From IMG/VR virus record IMGVR_UViG_2778261087_000003: a stretch of DNA of 64,000 bases; one strand, 5' to 3'. The notes under the pieces were generated by a model. That model had not been told where the DNA came from. It worked only from the letters and a program-made list of their open reading frames with translations, and ran no database searches. Every line of letters begins with the position of its first letter. Position 1 is the stretch's first letter. This DNA comes from a virus. Lineage: Duplodnaviria; Heunggongvirae; Uroviricota; Caudoviricetes. Both the position numbers and the translations under genes were made by a program. Of this stretch, positions 1,519-62,033 are shown piece after piece.

Positions 1519-1959
1519 ATGGCCACACTATCTGATACAATAAAACCGAATAAAACATATCTTGAGGCGGTACTCCGTACAGCGTTGTTAGGAAAGACAG
1601 AAGACGAATACGTTGATTTCTTCCTGTCAGGGCTACGCGGGCGATTACTGAAAAATCCCCGCCTGTACCGCAGCTACGGCCCATACTGGCCGGAAATTAA
1701 AAAATTATTACTGGAGCGCGGTTATGGTAATTTCGGTCGTCTCGTTGACCGTGACGTTCGCAAAATTTACCGTTATGACCGCCCGGCGCTGACGCTCATA
1801 GCCGCGACGCTCTACAGCCAGGAGCGTTTTGATAATGGTCAGATATACTCAGCCTGGCATTTACTGCCTGTGCCTGAAGAGGTTGACGACCAGGACTATG
1901 AGTTTGAGTCTTACGATTTGGAAGTTGAAGCCTTAGCACAGGCTGGAGAGAAAACTTGA
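1519..1959 (+). CDS. hypothetical protein, Ulx-like by position
   Basis: 146-aa ORF 33 nt downstream of the preceding stop, same strand; no motif recognised; assignment by synteny only. Confidence 0.5.
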   Translation: MATLSDTIKPNKTYLEAVLRTALLGKTEDEYVDFFLSGLRGRLLKNPRLYRSYGPYWPEIKKLLLERGYGNFGRLVDRDVRKIYRYDRPALTLIAATLYSQERFDNGQIYSAWHLLPVPEEVDDQDYEFESYDLEVEALAQAGEKT

Positions 1960-2204
1960 AAAAGCGATACTACACAGTAAAGCATGGGACGCTACGAGCA
2001 TTACAAGAGTTTGCTGACAAGCATAACGTTGAGGTGCGCAGGGAAGGGGGAAGTAAAGCTCTGCGCATGTACCGCCCGGACGGGAAATGGCGGACGGTCG
2101 TCGATTTCAAAACTAACAGCGTTCCCCAGGGCGTCCGTGACCGGGCATTCGAGGAATGGGAGCAGATCATCATAGATAACGCATTGCTCCTGAATGCTGA
2201 TTAA
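1956..2204 (+). CDS. small basic protein, Lxc/Bof-like by position
   Basis: 82-aa ORF with TTG start overlapping the upstream stop (TTGA), suggesting translational coupling; assignment by synteny and size only. Confidence 0.4.
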   Translation: MKKRYYTVKHGTLRALQEFADKHNVEVRREGGSKALRMYRPDGKWRTVVDFKTNSVPQGVRDRAFEEWEQIIIDNALLLNAD

Positions 2205-2208
2205 GAAC

Positions 2209-2237
2209 TCTCCGGCCTAGGGAGATTAGGCCGGAGA
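2209..2237. terminator. 10-bp perfect inverted repeat between convergent genes (possible bidirectional terminator)
   Basis: tctccggcct...aggccggaga stem with 9-nt loop in the 41-nt gap between the lxc-like gene (+) and the SIR2-like gene (-); no strong U-tract. Confidence 0.4.
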
Positions 2238-2245
2238 TAAATATA

Positions 2246-3550
2246 CTATATAAACTTAGATATAATATCGTGAATCTGTTGTAGCGGGATTTCTTCCATC
2301 TTACTCTTAATAAGAGAGCGGTTAGATGCTGTCAGTGAAGGCCATTTTGTTTTCCAGGCTAGATATGCTCGCCATGAGTAGCCTGTTTCGTAAGGTTTAT
2401 TCATATAAGTCATTGAGTGTTCAACCGCATGTATGTATTTTTTCTCAAAGTTGGTTCCTTTTACTTCAAATAAACTACCGAAATAAATAAGCCATTTTGC
2501 CAGGTGTTCATACTGCTCCCATGCGCCAGACTCTTTAGTAAGATCTATTTTTTTATCTATTATATCACAAAAAACATTTAATACCTTTTCATCATTCCAG
2601 CTATATCCAGATGATGAAATGGAGGAAATGATATGATAAAAAGAATCCTCTAACTTCAAGAACTCTATTTTATACTCTCTTCCGTTTTTTATTACCGATT
2701 TGATTGAGTGCCTCAATTTGTCTTTTATTTTTTTTGCTTCTGGAATTTTCTTGTTAAGTTTTCTAAAGAAATCAGACACCTCTGTTTTATCTATAACCCT
2801 AATCCCAAAGCAGGAAAAATAGTAATCTTTAATAGGTTGCAATAGTTTCCCTCGGGAAATAAGGAAAATATTGGAGGACATTACGTTGTCCCGTGAAAAT
2901 ACCTTATATTCATTTATAATCGCCTTGAGGTTCGCGTCACTTAGAGAATAGCCAAGAATAACAATAGTGTTTTCATGTAGAACTGTGCTTAGTTTATTTG
3001 AAAAGTAAGAATTACCATTTATAAATCTGAAATAATCCTCGCTAGTAACAACCATATCTGATGGGGAGTCTATAGAGCCGTGAACATGGTAGACTTTAAC
3101 CTCACAATTATATTTTGGAATTGGCAGGCCGGGGGTGATTGTACACGTTCGATTCTCTCCAGCCAGTTTTTCTGCTAACTTGTCATAATTTGTCGTAATT
3201 ACTTTAAATGTGTTTTCTTTGAAAAAGTCTTGAATATATTCAATTGATGGATCAAGTTCGATTGAGGCTATGATTTTCTCAATCTCCTGGTAAATATTTT
3301 TCCCCGAAAGTATAAATTTTAGTGCAATAACCTGAGCTGCCTCTTCAAGGCTAAGGTCTTTTGCTTTTCCATCAGGAAATAATTCCTCTTTGAGTGAGTC
3401 ACCATCCTTCAATAAACCGCACAGTTGCTCCAATAAAGATTGCCAACTTGGGGCTTTATCATCAGAAACAGCCTTTGAAAATCCAGTGCCTGTAAGAAAG
3501 CACAGCCTATGTGTAGCTGCTGCATAGGCAATTTCTATATACTCGCTCAT
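2246..3550 (-). CDS. SIR2-like (DHS-like NAD-binding fold) protein with a C-terminal helical domain of unknown function; candidate NAD-consuming defence effector
   Basis: 434 aa; motifs GTGFS (aa ~21), TTNYD (~120), HVHGS (~147), GYSLSD (~200) typical of SIR2-like defence NADases; GGAG RBS 6 nt upstream of ATG; strongly AT-rich compared with flanks. Confidence 0.8.
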   Translation of the reverse strand: MSEYIEIAYAAATHRLCFLTGTGFSKAVSDDKAPSWQSLLEQLCGLLKDGDSLKEELFPDGKAKDLSLEEAAQVIALKFILSGKNIYQEIEKIIASIELDPSIEYIQDFFKENTFKVITTNYDKLAEKLAGENRTCTITPGLPIPKYNCEVKVYHVHGSIDSPSDMVVTSEDYFRFINGNSYFSNKLSTVLHENTIVILGYSLSDANLKAIINEYKVFSRDNVMSSNIFLISRGKLLQPIKDYYFSCFGIRVIDKTEVSDFFRKLNKKIPEAKKIKDKLRHSIKSVIKNGREYKIEFLKLEDSFYHIISSISSSGYSWNDEKVLNVFCDIIDKKIDLTKESGAWEQYEHLAKWLIYFGSLFEVKGTNFEKKYIHAVEHSMTYMNKPYETGYSWRAYLAWKTKWPSLTASNRSLIKSKMEEIPLQQIHDIISKFI

Positions 3551-3606
3551 TACTTACTCCATTTACTTATAGTTCTACGGAGAAGTATACCCTAATGCAT
3601 TGACGT

Positions 3607-4248
3607 TTATAGATAATTTCCTTTTCCTGTTAATACTCCCTTAGGCACCTGTTTTTGTGCCAGCGTTTGGGTTCCGCGAATTATGTTAATCAGAGGGCTT
3701 AGTAACGATGGTTCCTGGCGTGCCTCAACTTCTCCAGCCATTGCCCTGATGTAGTCTGCGCTGGCAACGTTGTTGTATTCCGTCGCAAAGCAACATAGTA
3801 ACGTCAGAACATGCTCTGTCGTTATTTCGCTCCAGTTGATGTTGAAAAATTCATCGCCTTTTTTGTCGTGTTCGGAATCGAAGATGCTTTGGTGGAGGAT
3901 GTATTTGCCGGATTCTTTGCGCGGTAACTTGATCGCTTTCTGGCGTTCCAGCTCCTTGTAAATCTGCATTGCCTCAATTAGTACCGGCCTGCCGTTCATG
4001 AAGGGATCGCGCAACCTTACACGCTGGCCAACTCGTCCAGTAATAAAGCTGTTTTCCTCTTCCACCAGCACGATAAAACCCTTTTCCTCTTTTTCTCGCA
4101 ATTCGCGCAGCAGCTGGAGTTCCATATCGCGGCGGCGTTCAGGGTAGCTGGTCCGCTCAGCCATTATCAGCTCGTTATTGATCCATGCAGCAGTCATTGA
4201 CGCCGGTTTGCCGACGCTCATCGAAACAACGCATATTTTCTTATCCAT
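3607..4248 (-). CDS. Mat-like particle maturation protein (by position between ref and the res/mod slot)
   Basis: ORF track gives 3607..4359; the first 37 codons look like a spurious extension (W/F-rich) and an AGGGGG RBS precedes Met38 (MDKKICVV...), so start placed at 4248. Confidence 0.5.
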   Translation of the reverse strand: MDKKICVVSMSVGKPASMTAAWINNELIMAERTSYPERRRDMELQLLRELREKEEKGFIVLVEEENSFITGRVGQRVRLRDPFMNGRPVLIEAMQIYKELERQKAIKLPRKESGKYILHQSIFDSEHDKKGDEFFNINWSEITTEHVLTLLCCFATEYNNVASADYIRAMAGEVEARQEPSLLSPLINIIRGTQTLAQKQVPKGVLTGKGNYL

Positions 4249-7134: not shown

Positions 7135-7151
7135 AGAATTATTAGAGCAAT
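7135..7151. promoter_or_regulatory. C1 operator-like 17-mer (immC control region)
   Basis: Minus-strand reading ATTGCTCTAATAATTCT, between loxP and coi. Confidence 0.55.
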
Positions 7152-7217
7152 AAATTTTGAGAGAAAAATCCCACTCCACCAGCCAAAAACTGGATTGTTT
7201 TTCATAGTTGTTTGACA

Positions 7218-7234
7218 ATTGCTCTAATAAATTA
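7218..7234. promoter_or_regulatory. C1 operator (immC control region)
   Basis: Plus-strand ATTGCTCTAATAAATTA. Confidence 0.6.
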
Positions 7235-55835: not shown

Positions 55836-55991
55836 TTACCTTTCAGATTCGTAGGCTGTGAAGACAGTGACCTCCGTCTGGCCGGTTCGGATTCGTACCT
55901 CGCAGAGGTCTTTCCTCGTTACCAGTGCCGTCACAATGACGGTTAAACAGATGACGATCAGAGCGATTAACATCGCTTTTTGCTGCTTCAT
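55836..55991 (-). CDS. Hok/Gef-family type I toxin
   Basis: 51-aa ORF MKQQKAMLIALIVICLTVIVTALVTRKDLCEVRIRTGQTEVTVFTAYESER, closely resembling Hok (TM helix, conserved RKxLCE and AYES motifs); below the ORF-track size cut-off. Confidence 0.75.
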   Translation of the reverse strand: MKQQKAMLIALIVICLTVIVTALVTRKDLCEVRIRTGQTEVTVFTAYESER

Positions 55992-56172
55992 AGCCTGCTT
56001 CTCCTTGACCTTTTGGTCGGTAAGAGGCTAATCTACGTATGCTAAGCATAGATATGGCCTCAGATTAATGTTAAGCGTCTTGCAGGACGCGTAATGTTAT
56101 CTGGGGCTTTCTTCTATCTGCTTTTCGGGTAATGCCTGAAGCAGATAGCCTCAAGCACCCGCAACGATTGTA

Positions 56173-59569: not shown

Positions 59570-59883
59570 AGTTACGGCCTCACAATCAGGTTTAACAACC
59601 TGCTACCCGCTGCTAAACAGGTGGCAGGACGTGACGGGGTTAGCAGACTGGCGATTGTGAAACCAGCAGGCCGAAGCCTCCCCATCACGCCCCACCATAA
59701 TTTGGGCGTAACGCGGTTTTACGGACACAAAAATACCGCAATATCGGATATCTGCGGCTGTCCGCACAATCATTCAGGCTGCTAAACCCGGTCGCAGAAT
59801 TTGCTACGACGGCGGAACTATAAGCCTGAACGATTAAAAGGTCAATATGATGCGAAAAGATAGCATTCGTGACTTAAAAATAC

Positions 59884-59900
59884 AAATTTATTAGAGCATT
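59884..59900. promoter_or_regulatory. C1 operator controlling the immI (c4-icd-ant) operon
   Basis: Minus-strand reading AATGCTCTAATAAATTT. Confidence 0.65.
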
Positions 59901-59996
59901 ATCTGCTTAATAAATACACAATTGGATCTAATAACCTCTTTTTTTTAAAGGCGAAAATATGTACCCTAAATGGGTTATAAGGCAGGTGAGGTTATA

Positions 59997-60128
59997 ATGA
60001 GAAAACTATTACTATCGTTATTATTTATGGCTGGGACTGTTAATGCAGCATCAAGCGTAAAGGAGATTTGTACCGATTATACGAAATACCTTTGGCAAGT
60101 TTACGCCTTTGCGATCAATGACTATTAA
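59997..60128 (+). CDS. possible 43-aa secreted peptide
   Basis: MRKLLLSLLFMAGTVNAAS signal-peptide-like N-terminus; GGTGAGG RBS; below the ORF-track cut-off. Confidence 0.4.
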   Translation: MRKLLLSLLFMAGTVNAASSVKEICTDYTKYLWQVYAFAINDY

Positions 60129-60149
60129 TCCATGCGTAGGAGTGGATTT

Positions 60150-60467
60150 ATGCTGATTCGTTTGTTTTTAGTGCTTTCCTTTTTAACATTTAATGTTTTT
60201 GCTGATGAAGTTGACTTTTCGAAGGTAGATTGTAATTCAGTGGAAACAAGAAAAGCTCTTATTGAAGAATATAACGAAATATTATCGTCATATGGAATAA
60301 CAGTGGTTGATTCTTATAATCAAAAAACTATTCAGAAAGGAATAAATAAACTGGTCTGTTATGGGGTTTACCAATATTCAGATGGCTCTTCGGAGTATGT
60401 TATTTATAAAGCATACCCAAATAGTCTTGGTGAATTAATTAGTGAGTTTAAACCGATTAATGAGTGA
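60150..60467 (+). CDS. small secreted protein (sim-like region)
   Basis: Start at MLIRLFLVLSFLTFNVFA with AGGAG RBS; signal peptide; very AT-rich. Confidence 0.5.
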   Translation: MLIRLFLVLSFLTFNVFADEVDFSKVDCNSVETRKALIEEYNEILSSYGITVVDSYNQKTIQKGINKLVCYGVYQYSDGSSEYVIYKAYPNSLGELISEFKPINE

Positions 60468-60474
60468 ATGGAAA

Positions 60475-61254
60475 ATGAAATTATTTAATGTAATAACATT
60501 TTGTTGTGCTGTTTTTGCTGGAAGCGCGATAGCTGATAATAAATTGCCAGATTGGCTTTCTACCTCAAAGAAAGATTATGATTTAGTAAGGGCATTCTAT
60601 TTGTCTGGATTTGCTTCGAAAGCAATGAACAATCAATTTGGTTATCATTTGCCATCTGAGTTGGTTAATGATTTTAAAGATAATGAATTTGCTGCTCAGG
60701 AAAAATGGAACACAATTCCAATTGTGTATGGTGAAATAAAATCCATAAGAATGGTGAATAATAAACCAATTGTAGAGTTATTTACTCCAGGGGAAAATGC
60801 AACGCCACTAAATTATATCAAATTGAAAATATTGGATTCAAAGCAAGACTCTCTGTTAAAACTAAAAAAAGGGGATGATATATATGCAGTGTGCTCAGGT
60901 GCTAATTTTAGCTTAGTGCCAATTCTGAGCAACTGCACTCCAGCAACAGACGTCATTGATGCTGCACTCTCTTTTTCTGGTGAATATATGTTCCCTGCTT
61001 TTGATTCTTTTTCACCTACTAAGCAAAACGTCAAATATATATTCACAAATCAAGATCCTGTTCAGATGATGAATTTTATAGGGTACCTATCCTTAGTCGA
61101 TACAACGAAGGATAAGAAAAAAATGGATATGGTTCGTAAGTGTACGCCTTGGAAGCCGGAATGTTCACAACAATTCGTTGATGTAATGGAAGGATTTGAT
61201 AGCATCATGTATAAATATGAGGGAGAATTTAAAAATTACATAGAATTAAAATAG
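60475..61254 (+). CDS. secreted protein (possible superinfection-exclusion, SimC-like by position)
   Basis: Start at MKLFNVITFCCAVFAGSAIA (signal peptide); 259 aa; very AT-rich. Confidence 0.5.
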   Translation: MKLFNVITFCCAVFAGSAIADNKLPDWLSTSKKDYDLVRAFYLSGFASKAMNNQFGYHLPSELVNDFKDNEFAAQEKWNTIPIVYGEIKSIRMVNNKPIVELFTPGENATPLNYIKLKILDSKQDSLLKLKKGDDIYAVCSGANFSLVPILSNCTPATDVIDAALSFSGEYMFPAFDSFSPTKQNVKYIFTNQDPVQMMNFIGYLSLVDTTKDKKKMDMVRKCTPWKPECSQQFVDVMEGFDSIMYKYEGEFKNYIELK

Positions 61255-61291
61255 TATTTGAAAGGATAGTCAATTTAAGTTTTAAAAAAAA

Positions 61292-61320
61292 ACGCCCATT
61301 AAAGGGCGTTTTATTGTTTT
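61292..61320. terminator. rho-independent terminator
   Basis: acgccc-attaaa-gggcgt hairpin followed by TTTTATTGTTTT. Confidence 0.65.
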
Positions 61321-61442
61321 ACTCAAAACAACCTGATTATGTGATAACCATATCATATCCCTCATTCCACCTACACTGATTACCCCCCCAGACAACAATA
61401 TTCCTACTCAATGAACAAATGACTACTCGTAGAATCGGTTAA

Positions 61443-62033
<591 letters not shown>

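What the first reader, a model, noticed from the sequence alone, without database searches (positions are those of the whole stretch)
59997..61254. AT-rich trio of secreted proteins upstream of immI (sim-like)
Three co-directional ORFs (43, 105 and 259 aa), each with an N-terminal signal-peptide-like segment, lie in a markedly AT-rich block bounded by the immI operator and a strong terminator. Position matches the P1 sim (superimmunity) region, but the sequences are unrecognisable to me and the composition suggests separate acquisition. They are candidates for superinfection exclusion acting in the envelope.
Basis: partly seen in the sequence, partly recalled or inferred. Interest (0 to 1): 0.45.

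Follow-up and report, generated by a model that had tools for sequence, protein, structure and literature searches.

The report
Phage P1 sim superinfection-exclusion operon
The three AT-rich secreted-protein genes are the already described simA-simB-simC superinfection-exclusion genes of phage P1 (98.7% DNA identity), so the finding is ordinary, apart from signs that simA is only the stump of a longer gene.

Summary
Three co-directional ORFs of 43, 105 and 259 aa lie at 59997-61254. Each has a signal-peptide-like N-terminus. The block has 33% GC against 47.6% for the window, and it sits between the C1 operator Oc4 and a strong hairpin terminator.

It is not unrecognisable. The block is 98.7% identical over its full length to P1 simA/simB/simC (SimB 111/111 aa, SimC 262/264, SimA 48/52).

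The window is a P1-like phage-plasmid. The genes run divergently from c4-icd-ant, as in P1. The literature names sim/simC as the P1 superinfection-exclusion gene, lists simABC as non-essential, and describes it as a low-GC variable region.

Small additions:
- The slot between Oc4 and the late promoter LPsit holds different secreted-protein cassettes in P7 and Ro157c2YLVW.
- SimA equals the first ~45 residues of a 179-215-aa secreted protein that is full-length in relatives, so it is probably a remnant.
- A diverged simB/simC pair (59% and 43% identity) keeps its order in a distant P1-like plasmid.
- SimC has very few relatives and probably contains a divergent OB fold.

Verdict: already known, low interest.

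The parts
59884..59900 (-). C1 repressor operator Oc4 (AATGCTCTAATAAATTT). It marks the left edge of the variable slot. The immI operon (c4-icd-ant) is transcribed leftwards from here.
   Evidence: One mismatch to the C1 operator consensus. The window has 9 such sites against 0.03 expected. Position corresponds to the Oc4 feature annotated in P1.
59617..59823 (-). Context: c4 antisense RNA (59617-59702) and its a1/b1 target sites (59771-59823) of the immI operon, divergent from sim.
   Evidence: Rfam RF01695 at 69.6 bits and RF03163 at 55.5 bits, both above their gathering scores.
59906..59932 (+). Predicted sigma-70 promoter PsimA. The position is transferred from the P1 annotation and was not detected by the consensus scan here.
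   Evidence: The P1 record annotates PsimA at the homologous position. The window differs from P1 at 59906, which lies in the -35 hexamer. The scan found no match there.
59997..60128 (+). simA: a 43-aa ORF (52 aa from 59970 in the GenBank P1 annotation), made of a signal peptide plus 26 residues. It is probably the 5' stump of a 179-215-aa secreted-protein gene.
   Evidence: 48/52 identical to P1 SimA. It matches only positions 1-41 of the 213-position profile phrog_3933. The DNA is near-identical to the full-length gene of Ro157c2YLVW up to about 60105, similarity is patchy to about 60142, and TAA replaces GAA at 60126-60128. A strong Shine-Dalgarno sequence (AGGTGAGG) precedes 59997.
60150..60467 (+). 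simB: a 105-aa secreted protein (111 aa from 60132 in the P1 annotation). It has two conserved cysteines and its function is untested ('accessory').
   Evidence: 111/111 identical to P1 SimB. phrog_14329 covers residues 7-111, which supports the 105-aa start. Signal peptide cleavage VFA|DE. Homologues: a 52%-identical domain in D6 orf79 and a 59%-identical protein in L006.
60475..61254 (+). simC (the classical sim gene): a 259-aa precursor (264 aa from 60460 in the P1 annotation). Predicted signal peptide of 20 residues (AIA|DN), a probable OB-fold domain at about residues 55-155, and a C-terminal domain. Two conserved cysteine pairs.
   Evidence: 262/264 identical to P1 SimC. Signal peptide. 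PF12869 at 19.1 bits, below the 23.5 cut-off, but 4 of 9 family members hit it with a best E of 2e-14. The conserved MK(L/I)(F/V)N start in L005 and L006 supports the 259-aa start. C140 and C154 are invariant. C223 and C230 are conserved in full-length relatives.
61289..61312 (.). Bidirectional intrinsic terminator hairpin after simC.
   Evidence: 9-bp stem with 5 G-C pairs, A-run upstream and T-run downstream. Free energy -14.6 kcal/mol, z = -4.6, and 0 of 200 shuffles fold as well.
59901..61412 (+). Low-GC replaceable cassette slot between Oc4 and the late promoter LPsit. Homology with P7 is lost at about 59898 and regained at about 61413. Homology with Ro157c2YLVW is lost at about 60106-60142 and regained at about 61413.
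   Evidence: GC 0.331 against 0.476 for the window. Junctions come from the alignments.
61417..61435 (+). Late promoter LPsit (position transferred from the P1 annotation). It marks the right edge, where the conserved pmgC-tub-pmgB-sit operon begins.
   Evidence: P1 annotation. The region is invariant among the window, P1, P7 and Ro157c2YLVW.

Best explanation
Window 59997-61254 is the simA-simB-simC operon of a P1-like phage-plasmid, essentially identical to that of phage P1.

Shown here:
- Identity to P1 sim.
- The divergent position next to the C1 operator Oc4 of the immI operon.
- Sec-type signal peptides without a lipobox or further membrane segments.
- Low GC, and the cassette nature of the locus.

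Established in the literature: sim (simC) is the P1 superinfection-exclusion gene, its product was purified as a processed protein, and it is thought to keep DNA of superinfecting phages out of the cytoplasm. The genes are dispensable for lytic growth.

Inferred mechanism:
- SimC is exported by Sec and its 20-residue leader is removed after AIA.
- Its two conserved cysteine pairs are oxidised in the periplasm.
- As a soluble periplasmic protein built around a divergent tRNA_anti-like OB fold plus a C-terminal domain, it binds a component of the incoming P1 injection apparatus. Candidates are the tail-tube tip or the Sit transglycosylase/tape-measure protein, or the inner-membrane entry site.
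- Ejected DNA therefore fails to cross the inner membrane although adsorption is normal.

SimB is also periplasmic, with one conserved cysteine pair. It stays adjacent to SimC even in a relative where the two proteins are only 59% and 43% identical, so it most likely works with SimC as a partner or stabiliser.

SimA is most likely a non-functional stump. It is the signal peptide plus 26 residues of a 179-215-aa secreted protein that is intact in relatives. What it still contributes is the promoter, the ribosome-binding region and the reading frame that leads into simB.
For: Identity:
- 100% coverage and 98.7% identity to P1 NC_005856 46593-48240, annotated simC/simB/simA.
- SimB 111/111, SimC 262/264, SimA 48/52.
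- 136 PLSDB plasmids cover at least 80% of the query, and most records listed are 99.5% identical or more.

Context:
- c4 RNA and its a1b1 targets on the opposite strand.
- Oc4 at 59884-59900.
- ant, kilA and repL to the left, and pmgC, tub, pmgB and sit to the right.
- The last 25 kb of the window is 98.1% identical to P1.

Export:
- Signal-peptide features, no lipobox and no extra TM segment. The clustering of such N-termini is well beyond chance.
- Conserved cysteine pairs.

OB fold:
- PF12869 hit at residues 62-154 (E 0.001, below the cut-off). Four of 9 family members hit it, with a best E of 2e-14.
- The low-confidence AF2 model has pLDDT 50-69 only in residues 55-140, with a helix followed by beta strands.
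- Its weak Foldseek hits are nearly all OB folds: Mop/ModG, the LysRS anticodon domain, and the lipoprotein 3f1z.

B-C linkage:
- L006 carries a full-length A homologue, then a simB-like gene (59%), then a simC-like gene (43% for P0009, a fragment sharing its N-terminus with the L006 product), in the same slot.
- L005 carries simB next to a simC that is 83% identical.

SimA as a stump.

Literature:
- PMC8546580: Sim may prevent superinfecting phages from injecting DNA into the cytoplasm, citing Devlin 1982 and Kliem & Dreiseikelmann 1989.
- PMC9177967: superinfection exclusion is conferred by sim in P1.
- PMC10695390: simA, simB and simC are non-essential by CRISPRi.
- PMC9603915: simABC is a low-GC variable region.
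Against: - The molecular target of SimC is not known, and nothing here identifies it.
- The OB-fold assignment for SimC itself is below Pfam's gathering score (19.1 against 23.5 bits).
- The structure models are poor (mean pLDDT 31 and 45.6), and no Foldseek hit reaches E <= 0.001.
- No formal signal-peptide predictor could be run.
- The role of SimB rests on synteny alone.
- All sim-bearing elements examined keep the simA ORF open with the same stop codon, so a function for the 43-aa product is not excluded.
- PADLOC and NCBIfam have no model for any of the three proteins.
Confidence: 0.9

Rival explanations
1. The trio is a new, previously unrecognised set of secreted exclusion proteins that merely occupies the sim position.
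For: No curated family matches any of the three proteins. Pfam, NCBIfam and PADLOC give nothing above threshold, and PHROGs labels the matching families 'unknown function'. RefSeq plasmid records call the genes 'hypothetical protein'.
Against: 98.7% DNA identity and 92-100% protein identity to the annotated P1 simA, simB and simC. The 1990 sim sequence M34382 also matches at 97.9%.
Confidence: 0.01
2. All three products are functional. SimA is a genuine small secreted accessory peptide of a three-component system, as the P1 annotation 'putative superimmunity accessory function' implies.
For: The simA ORF, its strong Shine-Dalgarno sequence and its signal peptide are intact in the window, P1, 813R1 and 673R5. 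An A-type gene precedes simB-simC in the distant relative L006 as well, which suggests that A, B and C form one module.
Against: SimA covers only positions 1-41 of a 213-position family profile. It stops at a TAA where relatives read GAA and continue for another 130-170 residues. It keeps one cysteine of a protein that has two in full-length relatives. All 3 differences from P1 within the 43-aa ORF change the amino acid (a fourth lies upstream, in the 52-aa annotated form), against 2 of 6 in simB+simC. That contrast is not significant by my own hypergeometric estimate (p about 0.12). L005 has simB-simC with no A stump directly upstream.
Confidence: 0.2
3. The natural role of the cassette is something other than excluding P1. 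For example, it may protect against unrelated phages or colicins, or alter envelope properties of the lysogen. In that case exclusion of P1 would be a side effect of overexpression.
For: The same slot carries unrelated envelope-protein cassettes in other P1-like phages: an outer-membrane lipoprotein plus DUF5384 in P7, and a 215-aa secreted protein plus a YfjT-like protein in Ro157c2YLVW. This is typical of lysogenic-conversion 'moron' loci. Only about 28% of matching plasmids carry sim. From my own recollection, not checked here, the Sim phenotype was defined with multicopy clones.
Against: Papers consistently describe sim as the P1 superinfection-exclusion gene (PMC2409434, PMC9177967, PMC8546580). 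No data here point to another target.
Confidence: 0.12

Closest known systems
Phage P1 simABC (SimC = Sim superimmunity / superinfection-exclusion protein; Devlin et al. 1982, Kliem & Dreiseikelmann 1989, Maillou & Dreiseikelmann 1990)
   Same: It has the same genes, order, position and regulatory surroundings. DNA identity is 98.7%. SimB is identical, SimC differs at 2 residues (V13I and K215N in 259-aa numbering) and SimA at 4 of 52.
   Different: There are only point differences, plus 3 extra bases in non-coding DNA. The start codons best supported by relatives (43, 105 and 259 aa) are shorter than the GenBank P1 annotation (52, 111 and 264 aa).
Alternative cassettes in the same Oc4-LPsit slot: P7 upf50.5/upf50.0, and Ro157c2YLVW gp35/gp34
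   Same: They occupy the same insertion slot and orientation, and they also encode signal-peptide-bearing envelope proteins. Ro157c2YLVW gp35 shares its promoter region and first ~45 codons with simA.
   Different: The proteins are unrelated: an outer-membrane lipoprotein, DUF5384, a 215-aa secreted protein and a YfjT-like protein. The P7 cassette has higher GC (0.42-0.44) than sim (0.33). Their function is unknown.
Periplasm- or envelope-acting superinfection-exclusion proteins of other phages (T4 Sp and Imm, T5 Llp, phi80/N15 Cor, Streptococcus phage TP-J34 Ltp). This comparison is from general knowledge.
   Same: The logic is the same: a phage-encoded protein is exported to the envelope and blocks a step between adsorption and DNA arrival in the cytoplasm.
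   Different: No sequence relationship was detected. SimB and SimC have no lipobox, unlike Llp, Cor and Ltp, and no membrane-spanning segment beyond the leader, unlike Imm.
Pfam PF12869 tRNA_anti-like OB-fold domain
   Same: SimC residues 62-154 align to profile positions 52-144 of 146. More distant SimC relatives hit the family with E down to 2e-14. The secondary-structure pattern and the weak fold matches are consistent with an OB fold.
   Different: SimC itself scores below the curated cut-off. It also has an extra N-terminal helical segment and a C-terminal domain of about 100 residues with no detectable relatives.

Membership tests
P1 sim (simABC) operon | Sequence identity to P1 SimA, SimB and SimC | tested here: met
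   98.7% DNA identity over 1651 nt. SimA 48/52, SimB 111/111, SimC 262/264.
P1 sim (simABC) operon | Location between the C1 operator Oc4 / immI operon (c4-icd-ant) and the late operon LPsit-pmgC-tub-pmgB-sit, transcribed divergently from c4 | tested here: met
   Oc4 at 59884-59900. c4 RNA and its a1b1 targets on the - strand. ant to the left and pmgC, tub and pmgB to the right.
P1 sim (simABC) operon | SimC made as a precursor with a cleavable N-terminal signal peptide (the 'processed protein' of Maillou & Dreiseikelmann 1990) | tested here: inconclusive
   A rule-based check gives a typical Sec leader with AIA|DN cleavage at residue 20. SignalP was not available and processing cannot be shown by computation.
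P1 sim (simABC) operon | Confers exclusion of superinfecting P1 after adsorption | not testable with these tools
   Phenotype known only from the literature for the near-identical P1 genes (PMC8546580, PMC9177967, PMC2409434).
Pfam PF12869 tRNA_anti-like (OB fold) | Score at or above the gathering threshold (23.5 bits) | tested here: inconclusive
   SimC scores 19.1 bits, E 0.001. Four of 9 members of the SimC family alignment match, best E 2e-14. The weak Foldseek hits are OB folds, but none reaches E <= 0.001 and the model is of low confidence.
Lipoprotein-type exclusion proteins (Llp, Cor, Ltp) | Lipobox [LVI][ASTVI][GAS]C at the end of the signal peptide | tested here: not met
   No lipobox in any of the three proteins.
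Inner-membrane exclusion proteins (T4 Imm, P22 SieA type) | Membrane-spanning segment(s) in the mature protein | tested here: not met
   No 19-residue window with mean hydropathy above 1.6 beyond residue 25 in SimA, SimB or SimC.
Catalogued anti-phage defence systems (PADLOC-DB 2.0) | Match to any PADLOC protein model | tested here: not met
   No families at E <= 0.1 for any of the three proteins.

The most novel reading that the evidence does not exclude
The P1 'trio' may be a decayed version of an older three-gene secreted module, A-B-C. A full-length A protein (179-215 aa) still precedes simB-like and simC-like genes in a distant P1-like plasmid (L006). In P1 and in this window, A has been cut down to a 43-aa stump, so the working exclusion unit would be the SimB-SimC pair. 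SimC would be a very rare periplasmic OB-fold protein, with only about 15 relatives among 1.84 billion representative proteins. It would block the injection machinery or the DNA in the periplasm. This would correct the standard P1 annotation (simA as an 'accessory function', and the start codons of all three genes) and give a concrete two-protein target for working out how Sim blocks P1 DNA entry.
Probability: 0.55. Interest if true: 0.2.

Novelty: already known. Interest (0 to 1): 0.08.

Why it matters
It matters little for discovery, because this is textbook P1 backbone. Sim was defined genetically in 1982 and sequenced in 1990, and the low-GC, variable character of simABC among P1-like phage-plasmids is published. 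The modest value is for annotation and mechanism:
- RefSeq plasmid records still label these genes 'hypothetical protein'.
- simA looks like a gene remnant.
- The simB-simC pair is the conserved unit.
- SimC probably contains an OB fold with two disulfides.

These points narrow the experiments needed to find out how Sim stops P1 DNA entry, which is still unknown at the molecular level.

Tried and rejected
- Single-sequence AlphaFold2 of SimC gave mean pLDDT 31 and is unusable.
Only the OB region reaches 50-69. A Foldseek search of the PDB with that model gave no hit at E <= 0.001, only weak OB-fold matches. I treat this as consistent with an OB fold, not as proof.
- A profile search of PDB sequences with the SimC family found nothing meaningful (best hit E 0.15, glutaredoxin-related).
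- PADLOC and NCBIfam gave no relevant hits.
- The Pfam hit of SimB to TcpS (E 0.068) covers the signal-peptide region only, so I rejected it.
- Word-indexed homologue searches for SimC (single sequence and profile) and for SimB returned almost only near-identical copies and fragments.
- An exhaustive phmmer search found only 15 SimC relatives.
- The 39%-identical full-length relative P0005 was not returned by the profile search, so under the tool's input rule it was not eligible for the structure alignment.
- The Lobocka et al. 2004 P1 genome paper (PMC523184) is not held in the library. Details of the original Sim papers therefore rest on their titles and on citing papers.
- The consensus promoter scan did not find the PsimA promoter annotated in P1.
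- I compared substitutions in simA with those in simB+simC as a test for relaxed constraint. All 3 in simA change the amino acid, against 2 of 6 in simB+simC. The numbers are too small to decide (p about 0.12, my own hypergeometric estimate).

Full report
**1. The observation**

The + strand of 59997-61254 carries three consecutive ORFs of 43, 105 and 259 aa, at 59997-60128, 60150-60467 and 60475-61254.

Each begins with a short basic n-region, a strongly hydrophobic core and a small-x-small cleavage motif. The predicted sites are VNA|AS at residue 17, VFA|DE at 18 and AIA|DN at 20. None has a lipobox or a later membrane-like segment.

Only 11 of 778 possible Met starts in the whole window pass a crude signal-peptide filter. 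Four of these, representing the three genes, lie within 480 bp here.

The block 59901-61412 has 33.1% GC, against 47.6% for the window and 47-50% for the neighbouring genes. It is the lowest-GC 1.5-kb stretch in the window (profile).

On the left lies a C1 operator at 59884-59900 with 1 mismatch. The window has nine such sites against 0.03 expected. On the right lies a 9-bp G+C-rich hairpin at 61289-61312 with an A-run and a T-run, folding at -14.6 kcal/mol with z = -4.6.

One correction: the genes are transcribed away from immI, not into it. The c4 RNA (59617-59702) and its a1/b1 targets (59771-59823) are on the opposite strand.

**2. What it is**

Megablast of 59800-61450 against phage records gives full-length matches at 98.7% identity to phage P1 (NC_005856 46593-48240). 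The features annotated there are simC, simB and simA. The 1990 'sim region' entry M34382 matches at 97.9%.

The P1 annotation shows the same layout as the window. To the left, leftward-transcribed, lie repL, kilA, ant1/2, icd, c4 and Oc4. Then, rightward, come PsimA, simA, simB, simC, LPsit, pmgC, tub, pmgB and sit.

Protein identities to P1 are SimA 48/52, SimB 111/111 and SimC 262/264. There are 21 nucleotide differences in 1651 positions.

The rest of the window is P1-like too. Its last 25 kb is 98.1% identical to P1 over 93% of its length.

Among PLSDB plasmids, 486 match the query and 136 carry at least 80% of it. Most records listed are 99.5% identical or more, and they usually label the genes 'hypothetical protein'.

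**3. What the literature says**

[quoted passage not shown] It cites Devlin et al. [quoted passage not shown]
- PMC2409434 calls simC the superinfection exclusion gene. [quoted passage not shown]
- PMC9177967 says superinfection exclusion is conferred by sim in P1.
- A genome-wide CRISPRi screen scores simA, simB and simC as non-essential (PMC10695390).

Both the genes and the compositional anomaly are therefore already published.

**4. Cassette structure (a small addition)**

Homology between the window and P7 stops immediately after Oc4, at about 59898. It resumes at about 61413, just before LPsit.

In P7 the slot holds an outer-membrane lipoprotein gene and a DUF5384 gene, both with annotated signal peptides. 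In phage Ro157c2YLVW it holds a 215-aa (224-aa ORF) and a 158-aa secreted protein.

Separate acquisition of the AT-rich block is therefore supported. The locus behaves as a swap-in slot for envelope-protein genes.

**5. SimA looks like a stump**

- SimA matches only positions 1-41 of the 213-position profile phrog_3933.
- Its DNA is almost identical to the 5' end of the Ro157c2YLVW 215-aa gene up to about window 60105. Similarity is then patchy to about 60142 and is lost a few bases before the simB start codon.
- The simA stop codon TAA (60126-60128) aligns with GAA in the full-length gene.
- Reading through that stop gives '...SMRR', which aligns with '...SMRK' of the full-length proteins. 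This is also where the GenBank simB annotation starts (MRRSGF...).
- Full-length A homologues exist in L005 (215 aa) and L006 (179 aa).
- The same truncated simA is present in P1, 813R1 and 673R5.

The most economical reading is that a recombination or deletion fused the first ~130 nt of an A-type gene to simB-simC. That left the promoter, the Shine-Dalgarno sequence and the signal-peptide coding part in place. A function for the 43-aa peptide is not excluded.

**6. simB and simC form the conserved unit**

L006 comes from a 92-kb P1-like contig. Its slot reads ant, icd, an IS605-family tnpB, a full-length A gene, a simB-like gene (59% identity), a simC-like gene and then pmgC. The simC-like product itself was not aligned with SimC. 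P0009, an 89-aa fragment that shares its N-terminus, is 43% identical, and the full-length relative P0005 is 39% identical.

L005 has a 107-aa membrane protein, then simB, simC (83% identity), a full-length A gene, a YfjT-like gene and pmgC.

Phage D6 has a SimB-like domain (52% identity) fused to an unrelated C-terminal extension, with no SimC.

The starts conserved across these relatives are MRKLLL/MKKLAL for A and MK(L/I)(F/V)N for C. phrog_14329 begins at residue 7 of the annotated SimB.

**7. What SimC looks like**

SimC has very few relatives. An exhaustive phmmer search of 1.84 billion representative proteins finds 15 hits. Most are fragments of SimC itself, and only three are clearly full-length relatives, at 83%, 39% and 28% identity.

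Residues 62-154 match Pfam PF12869 (tRNA_anti-like OB fold) at 19.1 bits, below the 23.5-bit cut-off. Four of nine family members hit the same family, with a best E of 2e-14.

The family alignment shows the NDFxxNExAAxxK motif. C140 and C154 are invariant, and a second pair, C223 and C230, is conserved in full-length members. SimB also keeps two cysteines in all its homologues. This fits disulfide-bonded periplasmic proteins.

Structure prediction was poor, with mean pLDDT of 31 and 45.6. Only the OB region reaches 50-69, with a helix followed by beta strands. Foldseek against the PDB gave only weak hits, almost all OB folds.

**8. Mechanism**

Shown here: the identity of the genes, their export signals and their domain hints.

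From the literature: exclusion of superinfecting P1, thought to act by keeping its DNA out of the cytoplasm, and a processed protein.

Inferred:
- Sec export and leader cleavage after AIA.
- Disulfide formation in the periplasm.
- Soluble periplasmic SimC, probably together with SimB, binds part of the incoming injection apparatus or the inner-membrane entry site and stops DNA translocation.

The target is unknown.

**9. Verdict**

This is the known P1 sim operon in a P1-like phage-plasmid. Novelty: already known. Interest is low. The additions are minor annotation points: simA as a stump, corrected start codons, the simB-simC pairing, and the OB-fold hint in SimC.

Noticed in passing
window 55836-56160 (- strand): A hok/sok-type toxin-antitoxin module lies a few hundred bases beyond repL. 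It consists of a 51-aa Hok-like ORF (MKQQKAMLIALIVICLTVIVTALVTRKDLCEV..., 55836-55991) and an Rfam sok match (RF01794, 114.9 bits, 55986-56160). In P1 the gene next to repL is rlfA, and rlfA/rlfB is another published variable region.
   Followed up: partly
window 59970, 60132, 60460 against 59997, 60150, 60475: The GenBank P1 start codons for simA, simB and simC (52, 111 and 264 aa) are probably too far upstream. Conserved N-termini in relatives, the PHROG profile and the Shine-Dalgarno sequence support 43, 105 and 259 aa.
   Followed up: yes
L008 (phage 813R1) 875-1653; L009 (phage 673R5) 875-1652: In these two deposited P1-like phage genomes simC is annotated as two separate pieces, so the frame is interrupted. 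This could be real pseudogenisation or sequencing error.
   Followed up: partly
L004 (phage D6) 3348-4244: D6 orf79 (298 aa) has a SimB-like domain (52% identity) fused to a C-terminal extension of about 160 residues with no similarity to SimC. D6 has no SimC homologue.
   Followed up: partly
L006 3108-4238: An IS605-family OrfB/TnpB (Cas12f-like) gene is inserted between icd/c4 and the A-simB-simC module of a distant P1-like plasmid.
   Followed up: no
window 1-25000: No phage record covers more than 72% of the first 25 kb, so this part of the element carries non-P1 or mosaic cargo. A second, milder low-GC stretch lies at 1720-4143 (GC 0.415).
   Followed up: no
window 37524-37596, 39227-39299, 39305-39377 (- strand): Three tRNA genes (Rfam RF00005). 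P1-like phages are known to carry tRNA genes (general knowledge), but their identity was not checked here.
   Followed up: no
window 7135-7234, 23946, 29711, 40032-40059, 43565, 58214, 59884: Nine matches to the C1 operator consensus with 2 or fewer mismatches, against 0.03 expected. They include paired or overlapping sites at 7135/7218 and 40032/40043.
   Followed up: no
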